Origin: a virus
Taxonomy: Duplodnaviria > Caudoviricetes
Strand: one strand, 5' to 3'
Length of the DNA stretch: 60,357 nucleotides
IMG/VR virus record: IMGVR_UViG_3300044568_001950
Span: 1 to 60,357 of that record
The position numbers and the translations under genes were made by a program. Below the pieces are notes generated by a model, which did not search any database, was not told the DNA's origin, and saw only the letters and a program-made list of their open reading frames with translations. This document shows positions 1 to 60,357 of this stretch, piece by piece (the stretch's first letter is position 1; every line of letters starts with the position of its first letter).

Positions 1-127
1 AAAGTCGGCAGTAACTACGATAACCAAGGTCTAACGCAGTACAAGATCTCCAACAACTACGGTACCGCCCTGTATCAAGGCGATTCTGTTAAGTTGTCTG
101 GGGGATATTTAGCAATCGCAACCACCG
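1..127. repeat. Terminal duplication (copy 1), most likely assembler circular overlap
   Basis: 1-127 is identical to 60231-60357; 127 is a common assembly k-mer size; an ORF reads through the junction. Confidence 0.95.
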
Positions 128-5766: not shown

Positions 5767-6204
5767 ATGGCTTTCTCTGGCAATTACATGTGCACAAGCT
5801 TTAAGCAGGAGATTCTGCAGGGCGTGCATAACTTTACGGCAAGCACCGGAAACAACTTTAAACTGGCTTTGTACACCAATGGCGCTACATTTACGGCGGC
5901 TACCACTGCATATACGTCGGCCGATGAAGTTTCTGCTTCAGGAACTTATTCGGCGGGGGGTGGTTTGTTGACTAACGTAACCCCCACGACTTCGGGTACG
6001 ACGGCTTTTACGGACTTCAACGACCTGTCGTTTACTAGTGCCACCATCACGGCTTATGGCGCGATGATTTATAACGACTCAGCAGCGGGTGACCCTGCAG
6101 TATGTATTTTGGATTTTGGCGGCCCGAAAACGTCCACTGTTGGTACGTTTACGATCATTTTCCCAACAGCAGATGCAACTAACGCAATTATTCGGATTGC
6201 TTAA
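5767..6204 (+). CDS. Tail-associated structural protein
   Basis: 145 aa, FKLALYT...LDFGG; AGGAG RBS. Confidence 0.65.
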   Translation: MAFSGNYMCTSFKQEILQGVHNFTASTGNNFKLALYTNGATFTAATTAYTSADEVSASGTYSAGGGLLTNVTPTTSGTTAFTDFNDLSFTSATITAYGAMIYNDSAAGDPAVCILDFGGPKTSTVGTFTIIFPTADATNAIIRIA

Positions 6205-40631: not shown

Positions 40632-40861
40632 CTTTCGGCGAAGGCTTACAGGCACTCCTCGGTCGCGGTCCGGAGGAGAAGATTCAGCTTGTTTACATCA
40701 CGCTTGAGAACGGCAAGGTGCTTGTGTTTCTCGGCGCCCCGGTGACGCCTGAGGATGCCGATCAGATTTCTGAGATTACGTTCGGGGAACAGATGTCCCC
40801 GTTTTTATTAAGCCTCGCGGTTTCCTCGCTGGGCACAGTTGATGGGTTTACAACACAATGA
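40628..40861 (+). CDS. Hypothetical protein
   Basis: GTGA-coupled start at 40628. Confidence 0.5.
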   Translation: MTFGEGLQALLGRGPEEKIQLVYITLENGKVLVFLGAPVTPEDADQISEITFGEQMSPFLLSLAVSSLGTVDGFTTQ

Positions 40862-41016
40862 CAATACCTGCGTGGTTAATTGCGTTTATCGCCGTTCAAT
40901 ATGCGGCAATTGCGTTCTTATTCTATAAAGATGGTCAGCCATGGTTGGCTGTCACTTATTTTGGTTACTTGGTGGGCAACGTCGGATTGACGATGATTGC
41001 CTTGGGTCACAAATAG
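40858..41016 (+). CDS. 52-aa two-TM membrane protein (absent from the ORF track)
   Basis: MTIPAWLIAFIAVQYAAIAFLFYKDGQPWLAVTYFGYLVGNVGLTMIALGHK; ATGA-coupled; stops 5 nt before the repeat array. Confidence 0.65.
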   Translation: MTIPAWLIAFIAVQYAAIAFLFYKDGQPWLAVTYFGYLVGNVGLTMIALGHK

Positions 41017-41021
41017 CTCGA

Positions 41022-41331
41022 GGTATGGCATGCCAAGATAAGGCATGGTCAGGTAGTGTAGGGCGCGGTTCGGTGTGGTTAGGTGCGGTTAGGCTAGGCG
41101 CGGCACGGCTCGGCAATGTTCGGCAGGGCTAGGTTGGGTATGGTGAGAAGTGGTCCGGTATGGTGAGGTATGGGTTTCTTAATGGAGCTTGGTTGGGTTT
41201 GGCAGGATTGGCCCCGGTGAGGTGTGGCTAGGCTTCATTAAGAAGCCCGTAAGGGCTTTATCTGGAAGGGCAGGGCGGGGCATTGTCTGGCTAGGTCCGG
41301 TGCGGTACGGTTCCCCACGTTGGGGGTTTTT
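41022..41331 (+). ncRNA. GGY-NN pentamer array with hairpins; candidate guide RNA(s) for the adjacent Cas7-like protein
   Basis: Three in-phase blocks (41022-41171, 41191-41235, 41264-41313); 40 of 49 pentamers begin GGC/GGT; intergenic; hairpins between and after the blocks. The repeat is certain; the RNA role is inferred. Confidence 0.75.
41312..41331 (+). terminator. Terminator-like hairpin closing the array
   Basis: TCCCCA-CGT-TGGGGG-TTTTT. Confidence 0.55.
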
Positions 41332-41349
41332 CATATAGGAGAAAGTAGA

Positions 41350-41967
41350 ATGGCTAAGTCCAATTTGAAAGTCGTTAGTGATGTAACCAATGGCGGCAAG
41401 AGCGCCATTGAACAGGGTTTCCCTTATGCTGTAGCTGTACGGGCTCAAGGCGCGGCGGATCTGTTGTTCCACCGTTGGAACTGCGAGTCAGTCGATGCGA
41501 AGTCCAAGGCCGCCAAGAACTCAGCGGCCAAGAAGACAGATGACATCGAGTCCTACGTTTGGAGAAACGAAAAAGATGAACTCTGTATCCCAGGGGAGTA
41601 TTTTAGGCAGTCCATTATCCATGCTGCGAAATTTAAGCAAGACCCCCGTTCTCCGCGTAAATCCGCGATGGATCTCTTCAAAGCCGGGGTCGTTTCACTT
41701 ACTCAGTTGGCGTCACTTGGTAGCGATGAGTGGGACTACCTTGACACTCGTCGGGTCACAGTACAGCGAGCCGGAGTTAATCGAACAAGACCTGCCATGC
41801 GCATCGGATGGGAAGTGGATATACAGTTTCAAATACTCACCCCTGAGTATATCGACCCCCACCTTTTTCAAGACGTACTGAACACGGCAGGCCGCCTCGT
41901 AGGCGTTGGAGACTTCCGCCCAACGTACGGACGTTTTAACATCACAAACTTTGAGGTGCTCTCATGA
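41350..41967 (+). CDS. Stand-alone RAMP/Cas7-like RNA-binding protein (205 aa)
   Basis: AGGAG RBS; beta1 YAVAVRAQGAADLLFH, ELCIPGEYFRQSIIHAA (cf. RAMP IPGSSxKGxxR), thumb-like hairpin TRRVTVQRAGVNRTRP, C-terminal Gly loop AGRLVGVGDFRPTYGRF. Confidence 0.75.
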   Translation: MAKSNLKVVSDVTNGGKSAIEQGFPYAVAVRAQGAADLLFHRWNCESVDAKSKAAKNSAAKKTDDIESYVWRNEKDELCIPGEYFRQSIIHAAKFKQDPRSPRKSAMDLFKAGVVSLTQLASLGSDEWDYLDTRRVTVQRAGVNRTRPAMRIGWEVDIQFQILTPEYIDPHLFQDVLNTAGRLVGVGDFRPTYGRFNITNFEVLS

Positions 41968-42386
41968 TTAAAAAGCCTGCCAAGAAAGCGAAAGGTAAGC
42001 CCCTATCCCGTACGGTAAAGCGTACGCAAAAAAGTGCGGTTAAGAAGGCGAAAGGTAAGCCCCTATCCCGTACGGTAAAGCGTACGGTCAAGAAGGAGAA
42101 ACTTACGCCGCTGGCCCAGCTCGTTGCAAAGTGGGACAAGGACCAAGGGCCACTGCCCAGTCTTTACGACACGGCCACCCAGCTTGATGACGTGGTCACC
42201 ACGCTCACCAATATCCAGCACCTGATGGACTCCGCCCTGAATGACTGCGTGGACCTCACCAACAACGACCGCGCGCTTTCCTTACTCTACCTTGCGCACG
42301 GGATGGTTAAGGGAGTGATCGATAAGACCGACCCGCTAATCTCGGACCTTTACCGCATCAACCGGGCCACGTTGGACCTAAAGTAA
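41964..42386 (+). CDS. Protein with duplicated basic N-terminus and helical C-terminus
   Basis: ATGA-coupled to the Cas7-like gene; KKAKGKPLSRTVKRT occurs twice. Confidence 0.65.
   Translation: MIKKPAKKAKGKPLSRTVKRTQKSAVKKAKGKPLSRTVKRTVKKEKLTPLAQLVAKWDKDQGPLPSLYDTATQLDDVVTTLTNIQHLMDSALNDCVDLTNNDRALSLLYLAHGMVKGVIDKTDPLISDLYRINRATLDLK
41988..42086 (+). repeat. 39-bp perfect direct repeat, 60-bp period
   Basis: GCGAAAGGTAAGCCCCTATCCCGTACGGTAAAGCGTACG at 41988 and 42048. Confidence 0.95.
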
Positions 42387-42842
42387 GGATTTTTTCTTAC
42401 GCTTTGGAGCCGGGTGTAATGGCTCCAGGGACATACAGTCGATAGGACCGCCCGTAAGGGGGTCGTAGAGGGACGCAATCTCTATGGCCTCCTTGGGGCT
42501 CTTGCCCAAGTGCAAGGCCGCTATGGCGTATCCTGAGCCAGTCCCGATGGCATAGAAGTCGTTTTTGATCCTCGCAGGGATCAAAGTGCTCTCGTAGACC
42601 CAAATCCCGTCCCGCCGAAGCTCCAACATCTCGATATCACAGTCCTCATCCAACTCGTCGCCCTCTTTGGGGTGCTCGAGCATGCTAAAGGCCCCCAAGA
42701 TATCCTTCCAGTCGCCCGCCGCCCCGTAGATCGATTCTCGGCCCCTACGGAGCTTTTCCACAAAGTACTTGATGTCATCCCCACTGACTTGAGAGTCGGC
42801 GGCAATCTCGAGCGTTGAGAACCTGGCGGCGATCGTGGTCAT
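42378..42842 (-). CDS. HslV/proteasome-beta-like Ntn peptidase
   Basis: MTTI N-terminal Thr, IAADSQ, AIGTGSGYAIAAL, AIEIA..D..TGG. Confidence 0.8.
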   Translation of the reverse strand: MTTIAARFSTLEIAADSQVSGDDIKYFVEKLRRGRESIYGAAGDWKDILGAFSMLEHPKEGDELDEDCDIEMLELRRDGIWVYESTLIPARIKNDFYAIGTGSGYAIAALHLGKSPKEAIEIASLYDPLTGGPIDCMSLEPLHPAPKRKKKSLL

Positions 42843-43222
42843 AGCTCTTCCTTTTGCATGCTCCTGTTGTACGCCCGAATGGCCTGATGTTCGTTGAAAT
42901 GCTCTATCCGATGGCAGTTGGCACACAAGACCTCACACTTCTTGACTTCCTCGTACGCCTGCGAAAAGCAGTTGTCCATCACCAACCGATTCACGTCCTT
43001 CTTGGTCCCGTCCCGCGTGGGGTGGTGGAAGTCAATAATCGCCGGGTGCGACGCACCACAACGCGAACAAACTAGAGTGCTCTTATATTCCAACCACTTG
43101 GCACGGTTCTTTCTGCGTAAAGCATTCACCGCGTCTTGAATGACACGCTTATTGTTCTCGTAGTACTTCTTTCCGTATTCACGGTTCTTAACCCGCCTGA
43201 CCTCAGGATCCTTGTACGGCAT
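42839..43222 (-). CDS. HNH endonuclease
   Basis: CSRCG...IDFHH...KCEVLCANCHRIEH; likely start MPYKDP. Confidence 0.85.
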   Translation of the reverse strand: MPYKDPEVRRVKNREYGKKYYENNKRVIQDAVNALRRKNRAKWLEYKSTLVCSRCGASHPAIIDFHHPTRDGTKKDVNRLVMDNCFSQAYEEVKKCEVLCANCHRIEHFNEHQAIRAYNRSMQKEEL

Positions 43223-43380
43223 GACACTCCCCATTGAATTGGTGTGGGGGACTTGGATAACCCCAATCGTCAAAAAAGGGCGCCCCCACAGGGTTATCGT
43301 ACCCTGAGTGCATGAAACGTCAATGAGTTACCCGTCATACCCATGAGAGGTAACTCGGTGGGTGGTTAGGGGATCAAGTG

Positions 43381-43422
43381 TCGCGGACCATGGACCATGG
43401 ACCACGGGCCAAGATTACGAAG
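43381..43422. repeat. Tandem heptamer run (CCAYGGA-like)
   Basis: TCGCGGA CCATGGA CCATGGA CCACGGG CCAAGAT. Confidence 0.8.
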
Positions 43423-43440
43423 CCACCATACTGTAGGATT

Positions 43441-43675
43441 TCTAGAAATTTTTTTACTACACGTTTTTTTTCAGTCACTTTTAGACGTAATGAACGTAAT
43501 TTTAGCTATAAGTTATTGATTTATATAAGGAATTAGCATTACGTTAAGCATTACGTTAAAGTATTACTTTAAGTCTAGACGTAATGTTATATAGGATTCT
43601 GTAGCTAAAAAGAGACTCTACGTGCCTTACGTCCGGAAAATGTTGGTAAAAATGTGTAGTGAAAAAATTTCTGGA
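43441..43675. other. AT-rich origin/packaging-like element with 28-bp inverted repeats, ACGTAAT iterons and an IHF-consensus site
   Basis: Inverted repeat 43441-43468/43648-43675 (25/28); AGCATTACGTTA x2; AGACGTAATG x2; TAAGTTATTGATT at 43509-43521. Confidence 0.6.
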
Positions 43676-43730
43676 AAAAATAACGTATAGGGCGTGTTGC
43701 TCTGTAAGGGGGCTAAAACCCAGAAATACG

Positions 43731-43759
43731 TTGACAAAATACACCAGTGGAGATAATAT
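43731..43759 (+). promoter_or_regulatory. Sigma70-like promoter
   Basis: TTGACA-17-TAATAT upstream of the Cro-like gene. Confidence 0.65.
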
Positions 43760-43780
43760 AAACAAAGAAGGAGAAAAACC

Positions 43781-44196: not shown

Positions 44197-44904
44197 ATGA
44201 GCAACAAAGACAAGCAGAAGAGTCCTACAGGTCCGCTAACAATCGGTGATGTGCCGAAGAAGCGAGCCGCTAGAGCACAGGCAAGGATCGTTACTTATGG
44301 GGCACCCCTGACGGGTAAGCGTAAGCCCCTGAAACCTCGGGAGGCGAAGTTTGTTGAAATCTATGCTGGTGCTGATGGCACTATAACTCTGACCCAAGCA
44401 GCCCTTGACGCTGGGTATCCGAAGTCCATTGCATCTCGTATTGGCTCGGAGTTGACCACGCCGGAAAAGTATCCCCATGTCGTAGCGGCAATCCAGCGTA
44501 GACAAGCGGAATTAAATGCAAAGCATGGTACGACCTTTGAGCGGCACATGAAGGATTTGCAATTCATCCGGGATAAGGCAATTGAATCCGGGGCATGGGC
44601 GGCGGCGGTCCAAGCCGAATATCGGAGGGGCCAAGCATTGGGTACGATTTATATTGACCGCAAAGAGATCCGGCATGGCTCGATAGATTCGATGAGCAAA
44701 GAGGAAGTGCAGAAGAAGTTGGAAGCTTTGCGTAAGCTATATCAAGGCAGTCCGGAAGTGGTGGATGTGCAGATCACAGAATCGATTGAGATGGAAAAGA
44801 AAGCAGACCATACAGAGGAGTTTTTAAATGACGAAGAAGCCGGAAGCGAGCTTTTATCAGAAGATGAAGAAGGGGATGACGGGGTCGAAGATAACCCGCG
44901 TTGA
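44197..44904 (+). CDS. terS: Terminase small subunit
   Basis: LKPREAKFVEIY...TQAALDAGY...GSEL..P.V HTH pattern; acidic tail. Confidence 0.75.
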   Translation: MSNKDKQKSPTGPLTIGDVPKKRAARAQARIVTYGAPLTGKRKPLKPREAKFVEIYAGADGTITLTQAALDAGYPKSIASRIGSELTTPEKYPHVVAAIQRRQAELNAKHGTTFERHMKDLQFIRDKAIESGAWAAAVQAEYRRGQALGTIYIDRKEIRHGSIDSMSKEEVQKKLEALRKLYQGSPEVVDVQITESIEMEKKADHTEEFLNDEEAGSELLSEDEEGDDGVEDNPR

Positions 44905-60188: not shown

Positions 60189-60357
60189 ATGGCTAACGTT
60201 AATAAGCCTTTTGGTTTTCGTCCTGTCGGTAAAGTCGGCAGTAACTACGATAACCAAGGTCTAACGCAGTACAAGATCTCCAACAACTACGGTACCGCCC
60301 TGTATCAAGGCGATTCTGTTAAGTTGTCTGGGGGATATTTAGCAATCGCAACCACCG
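60189..60357 (+). CDS. 5' part of the capsid-associated protein continuing at base 1
   Basis: AAGGA RBS, ATG at 60189, in frame with 1..534. Confidence 0.75.
   Translation, partial: MANVNKPFGFRPVGKVGSNYDNQGLTQYKISNNYGTALYQGDSVKLSGGYLAIATT
60231..60357. repeat. Terminal duplication (copy 2)
   Basis: Identical to 1-127. Confidence 0.95.

What the first reader, a model, noticed from the sequence alone, without database searches (positions are those of the whole stretch)
41350..41967. Orphan Cas7-like protein in an apparently lytic phage
Motif order matches RAMPs: N-terminal strand, IPGxxxRxxIxxAA helix, extended beta-hairpin, and a Gly-rich loop GVGDFRPTYGRF before the last strand. At 205 aa it is a very compact version. 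An alternative to the guide model is anti-CRISPR action by poisoning host Cascade or sequestering crRNA.
Basis: partly seen in the sequence, partly recalled or inferred. Interest (0 to 1): 0.8.

Follow-up and report, generated by a model that had tools for sequence, protein, structure and literature searches.

The report
Phage VIPR guide-RNA silencing locus
The small Cas7-like protein is a Vipr protein, and with the five-letter repeat tract just upstream it forms a VIPR system, a CRISPR-related RNA-guided DNA silencer of phages first described in 2026, so this is a new example of a known kind.

Summary
The ORF is real: 41350-41967, + strand, 205 aa.

**Fold.** The AlphaFold2 model has pLDDT 93.9. 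Its best structural matches are all CRISPR RAMPs (Csm3, Cmr4, type VII Cas7), by Foldseek (E about 7e-7) and by VIA-align (Z 11.8).

**Family.** By sequence it is a relative of the solved SUSP1 Vipr protein (PDB 36pp, E 2.2e-5). A profile comparison with a phage homologue whose matched C-terminal stretch reads letter for letter like SUSP1's gives probability 98.9%, E 1.2e-17. The published GGY-contact residues are kept: H41, E83, R147, D188, F189, R190.

**Not functionally orphan.** The only GGY-NN pentamer tracts in the 60-kb genome lie directly upstream on the same strand (41022-41313; 40 of 49 units GGY). In 74 of 80 related loci, same-strand tracts flank the gene. The NN positions are near-random (1.95 and 1.99 bits).

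**Reading.** This is a VIPR system (bioRxiv 10.64898/2026.04.26.720920), probably silencing rival DNA by gapped RNA-DNA pairing.

**Not shown.** No target, no proven transcription, no type assignment. The role of the coupled 140-aa downstream gene is open. The anti-CRISPR alternative has no support.

This scan has noted VIPR on other DNA many times (660 notes). Verdict: new member of a known kind, modest interest.

The parts
41022..41171 (+). vrRNA tract, block 1. It has 30 pentamer units, 25 of them GGY-NN. Units 1-6 (41022-41051) form a leader that is nearly invariant in 8 relatives. Units 9-19 are an unbroken run of 11 GGY units.
   Evidence: Unit table. It is one of only three in-register GGY tracts on either strand of the genome, against 0 in 50 shuffles. 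The alignment of 8 relatives shows conserved GG columns and unit gains and losses in multiples of 5 nt.
41169..41256 (+). Long hairpin after block 1, a candidate structured 3' tail. The outer stem pairs about 41169-41189 with 41236-41256. Block 2 (41191-41235; 9 units, 7 GGY) sits inside it.
   Evidence: MFE of 41150-41345 is -79.4 kcal/mol, z -3.7, with 0 of 200 shuffles as stable. RNAalifold on 5 relatives predicts 21 pairs, 4 with changes on both sides and none broken. Many pairs are G-U, which pair only in the + strand RNA.
41242..41259 (+). Short 7-bp hairpin with a 4-nt loop that overlaps the 3' arm of the long hairpin (alternative fold).
   Evidence: fold of 41225-41270, -15.4 kcal/mol. 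The stem letters differ between relatives while pairing is kept (read from the alignment).
41264..41313 (+). vrRNA tract, block 3: 10 units, 8 of them GGY.
   Evidence: Units listed; detected. NN letters are the most variable here among relatives (mean pairwise identity N4 0.58, N5 0.38).
41312..41331 (+). Intrinsic-terminator-like hairpin plus T5, ending the tract just before the vipr ribosome-binding site.
   Evidence: stem 41312-41326, then TTTTT. The stem is kept, with different loops, in relatives.
41350..41967 (+). vipr gene: 205-aa minimal RAMP protein (single RRM core, thumb hairpin, G-loop).
   Evidence: ORF; model; RAMP fold; PDB 36pp SUSP1 Vipr, E 2.2e-5; hhalign 98.9%, E 1.2e-17; conservation of contact residues.
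41964..42386 (+). Translationally coupled 140-aa gene (ATGA overlap). It has a Lys-rich tandem-repeat tail (1-41, disordered) and a three-helix bundle (49-136). It is a candidate accessory (vap-like) gene with unproven role.
   Evidence: overlap; repeat copy number varies among 30 homologues; model; 45-nt direct repeat D4; present with the same -3 offset only in the window's close lineage.

Best explanation
The locus 41022-42386 is a VIPR (Viral Interference Programmable Repeat) system of a lytic freshwater phage.

The 205-aa protein is a Vipr, a minimal RAMP. By homology with the SUSP1 system, one protomer binds each GGY-NN unit of a + strand RNA made from the tract at 41022-41313. Each GGY is sequestered, using H41, R147, D188, F189, R190 and E83. 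The NN pairs are presented so that the filament reads double-stranded DNA by a gapped code (NN, skip one, NN ...) and blocks transcription of the bound gene. The likely targets are genes of competing mobile elements or of the host.

Shown here: the fold, the homology, the kept contact residues, the tract and its strand, its co-occurrence with vipr in relatives, the conserved-GG and variable-NN pattern, and a covarying hairpin after block 1.

Inferred from the papers: RNP filament formation, dsDNA binding with the 1-nt skip, and silencing.

Unknown: the targets, the exact RNA ends, and the role of the downstream 140-aa protein.
For: (1) Homology. phmmer against PDB sequences finds only 36pp 'SUSP1 Vipr protein' (E 2.2e-5, residues 128-198). 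hhalign of the 62-sequence family profile against the Citrobacter phage Mijalis homologue gives probability 98.9%, E 1.2e-17 over 164 columns. The Mijalis stretch matched reads letter for letter like the SUSP1 stretch.

(2) Contact residues named in bioRxiv 10.64898/2026.04.26.720927 (section 5, read) map as H17->H41, E71->E83, R138->R147, D177->D188, W178->F189, R179->R190. In the 62-sequence family alignment the counts are H41 49/62, R147 61/62, D188 57/62, F or Y at 189 46/62, R190 60/62.

(3) Fold. pLDDT is 93.9. Foldseek PDB top hits are type VII Cas7 and Csm3 (E 6.8e-7). VIA-align gives Z 11.8 for Cmr4 and Csm3.

(4) Guide tract. The only in-register GGY-NN tracts of the genome are at 41037-41318 on the + strand, with 0 in 50 shuffles. 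40 of 49 units are GGY.

(5) Relatives. 74 of 80 related viral loci have + strand tracts beside vipr and 0 of 80 have them on the - strand. Across 249 tracts and 3301 units, N4 and N5 entropy is 1.95 and 1.99 bits, and the median tract is 12 units (IQR 10-17), against the published 9-16.

(6) Among 8 close relatives, variable columns are G1 9/44, G2 13/44, Y3 30/44, N4 26/44, N5 32/44. Units are gained and lost in steps of 5 nt.

(7) Structured end. There is a hairpin with 4 compensatory pairs of 21 and a terminator before vipr.

(8) No self-target above the shuffled-guide null, as the discovery paper reports for its systems.
Against: No natural target was found (see Tried and rejected), so the function is inferred.

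Transcription is not shown. Contigs from RNA libraries cover the tract, but the tool warns that DNA can be present in such libraries.

No sigma-70-like promoter was found in 40700-42600.

Similarity to the characterised SUSP1 Vipr is remote (25% identity over the aligned columns). The residue aligned to its DNA-backbone contact K33 is A54, with lysines beside it at 53 and 56.

Block 1 has 26-30 units, longer than the published 9-16. It is not clear whether it gives one RNA or several.

Block 2 may be part of a hairpin rather than a guide.

The downstream gene is not similar to the gene in the vap1 position of SUSP1-type phages.

I could not superpose the model on a solved Vipr structure, because the fold library ends on 2026-04-08 and listed none.
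Confidence: 0.88

Rival explanations
1. Anti-CRISPR decoy. The lone RAMP mimics a host Cas7, poisons Cascade or Csm assembly, or soaks up host crRNA. The upstream repeats are unrelated.
For: The fold resembles Cas7-family subunits. The phage carries no cas gene neighbours.
Against: Same-strand GGY-NN tracts flank the gene in 74 of 80 related loci. The residues that hold GGY in the solved Vipr complex are kept. The family is homologous to a protein shown to bind its own vrRNA (papers read). No Pfam RAMP family and no PADLOC model matches.
Confidence: 0.03
2. RNA-processing RAMP only. The protein binds or cuts the repeat RNA as Cas6 does, and the RNA acts by another route (antisense, sponge) without DNA targeting.
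For: Cas6 proteins appear among the weaker structural matches (Z 6.2-6.4). No DNA target was found here.
Against: The best matches are backbone subunits (Csm3, Cmr4, Cas7), not Cas6. The homologous SUSP1 protein forms filaments on RNA and binds dsDNA. The NN entropy pattern fits a code rather than a fixed processing site.
Confidence: 0.05
3. The repeat tract is a DNA-level element (origin, bent DNA, protein-binding iterons). The protein is an ordinary DNA-binding regulator, as the GenBank record of Phage DSL-LC04 labels its homologue ('helix-turn-helix transcriptional regulator').
For: The GenBank label. The tract lies in a 330-nt intergenic gap.
Against: No HTH family matches in Pfam or NCBIfam. 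The model is an RRM/RAMP fold, not an HTH. The tracts are strictly on the gene's strand in 80 of 80 loci. The hairpin relies on G-U pairs that exist only in + strand RNA.
Confidence: 0.02

Closest known systems
VIPR systems: Vipr protein plus GGY/NN vrRNAs. Reference system: type II of Escherichia phage SUSP1 (bioRxiv 10.64898/2026.04.26.720920, 10.64898/2026.04.26.720927, 10.64898/2026.10.15.759431; PDB 36pp).
   Same: A roughly 20-kDa single-RRM RAMP with a G-loop motif GVGD[FW]RP..GRF and kept GGY contacts. Same-strand tracts of GGY-NN pentamers lie in the flanking intergenic DNA. GG is conserved and NN variable. It is phage-borne, with a small coupled downstream gene and no self-target.
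   Different: Only about 25% identity to the SUSP1-type protein. All tracts lie upstream here, whereas the Mijalis and SUSP1-type locus has them on both sides. Block 1 is 26-30 units against 9-16. The end structure is a long hairpin plus terminator, not the SUSP1 pseudoknot described. The downstream gene is not similar to the vap1-position gene.
CRISPR Cas7-family backbone subunits (Csm3, Cmr4, type VII Cas7, Csf2).
   Same: Fold: RRM core, thumb hairpin, glycine-rich loop (Foldseek E about 7e-7; Z 11.8-10).
   Different: No CRISPR-like array was found in the genome and no Pfam RAMP family matches. The repeat is a 5-nt unit rather than a 6-nt ruler on a spacer. Sequence identity to the matched chains is 9-16%.
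Phage DSL-LC04 (OR003939, proposed 'Dishuiviridae'; PMC10611076), protein WJZ48083.1.
   Same: 96.6% identical protein in a syntenic place, between the replication genes and the terminase genes. The same leader, tract and hairpin are present.
   Different: It is annotated there as a helix-turn-helix regulator. The passages of that paper that mention the phage say nothing of a RAMP or a repeat tract.

Membership tests
VIPR system (Vipr + vrRNA) | Protein homologous to a characterised Vipr | tested here: met
   PDB 36pp SUSP1 Vipr, E 2.2e-5. hhalign against the Mijalis homologue gives probability 98.9%, E 1.2e-17, 164 columns.
VIPR system (Vipr + vrRNA) | Minimal RAMP fold: one RRM core, thumb, G-loop (the discovery pipeline used Z>=6 to Cas5/6/7 plus these features) | tested here: met
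   Model pLDDT 93.9. Z 11.8 to Cmr4 and Csm3, and Z 6.4 to Cas6 6fjw_A, one of the paper's own query structures. Foldseek gives 139 matches at E<=1e-3.
VIPR system (Vipr + vrRNA) | Residues that hold G1, G2 and Y3 of the repeat (H17, R138, D177, W178, R179, E71 of SUSP1) | tested here: met
   H41, R147, D188, F189 (aromatic for W), R190 and E83 by alignment. They are conserved in the family. M72 aligns to Y84.
VIPR system (Vipr + vrRNA) | Lysine of the helical bundle that contacts target DNA (K33 of SUSP1) | tested here: inconclusive
   It aligns to A54, with lysines at 53 and 56 beside it. This part of the alignment contains a gap.
VIPR system (Vipr + vrRNA) | At least 4 tandem YNNGG units in DNA flanking vipr, on its strand | tested here: met
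   Three blocks, 40 of 49 units GGY, + strand only; 0 such tracts in 50 shuffles.
VIPR system (Vipr + vrRNA) | GGY conserved, NN hypervariable among related systems | tested here: met
   Variable columns are G1 9/44 and G2 13/44 against N4 26/44 and N5 32/44 in 8 relatives. NN entropy is 1.95 and 1.99 bits over 3301 units in 80 loci (the GGY letters were required by my caller, so only the NN figures are free).
VIPR system (Vipr + vrRNA) | Structured, conserved 3' tail after the repeat tract | tested here: inconclusive
   A covarying hairpin follows block 1 (21 pairs, 4 compensatory, 5 sequences) and a terminator hairpin follows block 3. The RNA ends are unknown, and only about 4 independent lineages were compared.
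VIPR system (Vipr + vrRNA) | Accessory vap gene beside vipr | tested here: inconclusive
   A coupled 140-aa gene is present. It is found in only 9 of 83 loci compared, and has no similarity to the vap1-position genes of phage momo or to the downstream gene of Medea1. Sequences of vap2-6 were not available.
VIPR system (Vipr + vrRNA) | vrRNAs expressed and bound by Vipr | not testable with these tools
   Only assembled contigs from RNA libraries were available. They cannot show transcription, ends or strand.
VIPR system (Vipr + vrRNA) | Natural targets under the 1-nt skip rule (>=80% NN match) | tested here: inconclusive
   Exact-seed scans only. There were no extending hits in viral contigs, and one 20-of-20 hit in a metagenome contig at about chance expectation.
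CRISPR-Cas Cas7 (class 1 backbone subunit) | Encoded with a CRISPR array, and matched by a curated RAMP family | tested here: not met
   No CRISPR-like repeat family in the genome. No Pfam, NCBIfam or PADLOC family matches. I did not scan the other genes of the genome for cas families.

The most novel reading that the evidence does not exclude
This freshwater-phage clade may hold a VIPR variant outside the described architectures. It would have long uninterrupted tracts (26-30 units here; 36 at the 95th percentile and 71 at the maximum in relatives), read out as several guides or as one long filament. The tract would be capped by a covarying long hairpin instead of a pseudoknot. The system would be served by a fast-evolving partner protein with a variable-copy lysine-rich tail and a three-helix bundle, acting like a detached Cas11-type small subunit or a DNA clamp.
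Probability: 0.2. Interest if true: 0.5.

Novelty: new member of a known kind. Interest (0 to 1): 0.3.

Why it matters
It places a working-looking VIPR locus in a complete, apparently lytic, uncultured freshwater phage lineage (the proposed 'Dishuiviridae'). The GenBank relative there is mislabelled as an HTH regulator.

The family is large in environmental data. This search found 6696 relatives, against the 2,664 Vipr sequences the discovery paper drew from NCBI NR.

The conserved NN letters of block 1 units 9-18 in close relatives point to a guide kept by selection whose target is still unknown. Finding that target would say what a lytic phage silences during infection.

The mechanism itself is already in print, so the gain is annotation and breadth rather than a new principle.

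Tried and rejected
**Target searches.**
- All 10-unit sub-guides of block 1, and blocks 2 and 3, were scanned against the window and the 113 loci then held (507 kb). The best scores, 14-16 of 20, were no better than shuffled guides.
- Exact-seed scans of viral contigs were run. Units 9-17 of block 1 gave 0 hits.
- Block 3 units 1-8 gave 8 hits. Block 2 units 1-8 gave 7 hits. Block 1 units 21-28 gave 13 hits, and units 13-20 gave 5 hits. None extended into flanking units.
- Block 1 units 7-14 gave 8 contigs that are all one conserved site, in an ORF that I read by eye as like the T7 single-strand DNA-binding protein. There was no extension (3 of 16 flanking letters). The skipped base falls at codon position 1, not the wobble position. 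I treat this as chance.
- Metagenome and genome-collection scans of block 1 units 9-18 gave 0 and 0 hits. Units 21-30 in genomes gave 0.
- Block 3 (10 units) gave one exact 20-of-20 match in a 2880-bp phage-like metagenome contig (L127). The skipped bases fall at the wobble positions of a 69-aa ORF.
- By my rough estimate about one such hit is expected by chance in a collection of that size. The contig is 38.7% G+C against 49.7% and shares nothing with the window. 1321 sub-guides from the 80 relatives do not converge on it. I treat it as a lead only.
- All these scans needed exact matches, so targets with 80-95% NN match would have been missed.

**Other searches that gave nothing.**
- Pfam, NCBIfam and PADLOC gave nothing for the protein or its neighbour. 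PHROGs gave only phrog_4652, of unknown function.
- Rfam has no family on the tract.
- The downstream protein has no Foldseek match at E<=1e-3.
- Complex prediction of Vipr 20-205 with the downstream protein 44-140 returned 'no answer'. It counts neither way.
- RNA-library contigs: one 530-nt contig covers 41025-41537 and one 165-nt contig covers 41068-41232 with a single difference. Contigs cannot show transcription, so I use this only as a weak hint.
- The ESM Atlas listed only unnamed viral clusters.
- The VIPR type could not be assigned. Supplementary tables of the preprints may list this clade or the DSL-LC04 protein, and I could not see them.

**Papers.**
- Of 10.64898/2026.04.26.720920 I read the abstract, Results, Discussion, methods sections 18, 20, 26 and 27, and passages found by term.
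- Of 10.64898/2026.04.26.720927 I read the abstract and sections 5 and 6.
- Of 10.64898/2026.10.15.759431 I read the abstract and section 17.
- Of PMC10611076 I read only the passages that mention DSL-LC04.

Full report
**The observation.** The window is a complete phage genome of 60357 bp with a 127-nt terminal repeat. Its nearest named relative is the metagenome-assembled Phage DSL-LC04. The ORF at 41350-41967 on the + strand starts at an ATG 8 nt after an AGGAG and encodes 205 residues. The frame is a real gene. It has 6696 relatives at E<=1e-3 among 6816 candidates and 1184 cluster representatives at E<=1e-3. No curated family names it: Pfam, NCBIfam and PADLOC gave nothing, and PHROGs gave only an unnamed family.

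**Fold.** An AlphaFold2 model from a 62-sequence alignment has mean pLDDT 93.9. It shows strand 26-34, helix 82-95, a long hairpin 130-150, helix 170-184, a glycine-rich loop and a last strand 196-204. All listed Foldseek matches in the PDB are Cas7-family subunits (type VII Cas7, Csm3, Cmr4, gRAMP). The best E is 6.8e-7, and 139 matches have E<=1e-3. An independent all-against-representatives search gives Z 11.8 for Cmr4 and Csm3, and its first 29 rows are all CRISPR RAMP proteins. Among predicted viral structures, the three matches with E<=1e-3 include one named a RAMP superfamily protein.

**Identity.** A sequence search of PDB chains finds one match, 36pp 'SUSP1 Vipr protein', E 2.2e-5, over the C-terminal 70 residues including the G-loop. 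This led to three 2026 preprints on VIPR systems. In these systems a small phage RAMP (Vipr) polymerises on an RNA of alternating GGY and NN segments. The NN pairs read double-stranded DNA with one base skipped per unit, and binding silences transcription of rival elements.

A profile comparison of the family alignment with the homologue of Citrobacter phage Mijalis gives probability 98.9%, E 1.2e-17, over 164 columns that span nearly the whole protein. The Mijalis stretch matched there reads letter for letter like the SUSP1 stretch.

The residues reported to hold the GGY bases map onto identical or like residues: H17->H41, E71->E83, R138->R147, D177->D188, W178->F189, R179->R190. These are among the best-conserved positions of the family. 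The lysine K33 that touches target DNA aligns to A54, flanked by lysines, so that feature is unresolved.

**The guide tract.** I scanned both strands of the genome for in-register GGY-NN pentamers. Tracts appear only at 41037-41176, 41191-41235 and 41264-41318, all on the + strand and directly upstream of the gene. None appears in 50 shuffles. Unit by unit:
- Block 1 (41022-41171) has 25 GGY in 30 units.
- Block 2 (41191-41235) has 7 of 9.
- Block 3 (41264-41313) has 8 of 10.

In 80 related viral loci, 74 have such tracts on the gene's strand beside vipr, upstream or downstream, and none has one on the other strand. Over 249 tracts and 3301 units, the NN letters carry 1.95 and 1.99 bits. The median tract has 12 units (IQR 10-17), close to the published 9-16.

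In an alignment of 8 close relatives, the GG columns vary least (9 and 13 of 44) and the Y and NN columns vary most (30, 26 and 32 of 44). Units come and go in steps of five. In block 1 units 9-18, the NN letters are the same in the window, L005, L006 and L008, while several GGY letters differ (read). This is what a guide kept by selection would look like.

**RNA structure.**
- After block 1, a long hairpin (about 41169-41256) encloses block 2.
- The 196-nt stretch folds far better than shuffles (z -3.7).
- The outer stem of 21 pairs keeps pairing in 5 relatives, with 4 compensatory changes.
- Many pairs are G-U, so the structure exists only in + strand RNA.
- A short hairpin with a 4-nt loop overlaps its 3' arm.
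- Block 3 ends in a terminator-like hairpin with five T, just before the vipr ribosome-binding site.
- The first 30 nt of block 1 are nearly invariant in relatives and may be a leader or promoter. No sigma-70-like promoter was found.
- Rfam has no family here.
I tested it.

**The neighbour.** The next gene (41964-42386) overlaps vipr by ATGA. Its product has a disordered lysine-rich tail made of tandem repeats, whose copy number varies among homologues, and a three-helix bundle.
- It occurs with the same overlap only in the window's close lineage: 9 of 83 loci compared, and the same cluster.
- It has 209 relatives, against 6696 for vipr.
- It diverges faster than vipr: 32-93% identity where vipr is 91-98%.
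- It is not similar to the gene in the vap1 position of SUSP1-type phages and has no informative fold match.
- A basic tail suggests nucleic-acid binding, which would suit an accessory role, but this is inference.
- More distant relatives have other genes, or guide tracts, in that place.

The HslV-like peptidase and HNH endonuclease genes that follow are on the other strand, next to the terminase genes. I do not count them as parts of the system.

**Targets.** None could be established; details are in Tried and rejected. No self-target exceeds the shuffled-guide null, as the discovery paper reports for its systems. One exact 20-of-20 match of block 3 lies in a small phage-like metagenome contig, with the skipped bases at wobble positions. 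It sits at about the number expected by chance and is not backed by convergence of relatives' guides.

**Lifestyle and context.** No tyrosine or serine recombinase is found in the complete genome, which fits a lytic phage. The locus lies after the replication genes and a run of small early genes, and before the packaging genes. The DSL-LC04 paper predicts a Pseudomonas host for that relative.

**Verdict.** The locus is a VIPR system, a kind already in print. This scan has noted VIPR many times on other DNA (660 notes in at least 461 genomes). It is a new member of a known kind. The long block 1, the hairpin cap and the lineage-specific partner gene are possible variations, which I could not compare with the published type tables because supplements were closed.

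Noticed in passing
L001 9001-9618 (Phage DSL-LC04, WJZ48083.1): The 96.6%-identical homologue in GenBank is labelled 'helix-turn-helix transcriptional regulator'. No HTH family matches the window's protein and the fold is a RAMP, so the label looks wrong.
   Followed up: partly
window 42378-42926 (-) and 42839-43273 (-): An HslV-family peptidase-like gene (phrog_1040, E 1.3e-31) and an HNH endonuclease gene converge on the vipr operon. Both are kept in the 9 close relatives, and they sit just before the small terminase gene at 44197-44904.
   Followed up: partly
window 43274-43780: A 500-nt intergenic gap holds short tandem repeats (a 7-nt unit x2.9 at 43385-43404; a 12-13-nt unit x3 at 43535-43573).
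   Followed up: no
L003 4794-5932 (Pseudomonas phage Medea1): A distant vipr homologue (Medea1_0009, 27% identity) sits in an island between tail genes, after an HTH regulator, an Arc-like gene and a Rha antirepressor. A 12-unit GGY-NN tract lies at 5873-5932, downstream of the next gene.
   Followed up: partly
L113 1847-3595 (Citrobacter phage Mijalis): The SUSP1-type locus shows five + strand GGY-NN tracts, two upstream and three downstream of the vipr and vap1-position genes. One of them (1969-2028) largely overlaps an annotated 44-aa 'hypothetical protein' (1980-2114), which may be a miscalled ORF.
   Followed up: no
L127 1920-1948: All 20 coding letters of block 3 match exactly under the 1-nt skip rule, in a 69-aa ORF of a low-GC phage-like metagenome contig, with the skips at wobble positions. 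About one such hit is expected by chance.
   Followed up: yes
L119-L126 (e.g. L125 6077-6099): Block 1 units 7-14 match exactly (16 of 16 letters) one conserved site in an ORF that I read by eye as like the T7 single-strand DNA-binding protein, in 8 viral contigs. There is no extension, and the skipped base is at codon position 1.
   Followed up: yes
window 1-127 and 60231-60357: A 127-nt exact direct terminal repeat, consistent with a complete genome.
   Followed up: no
   Followed up: no
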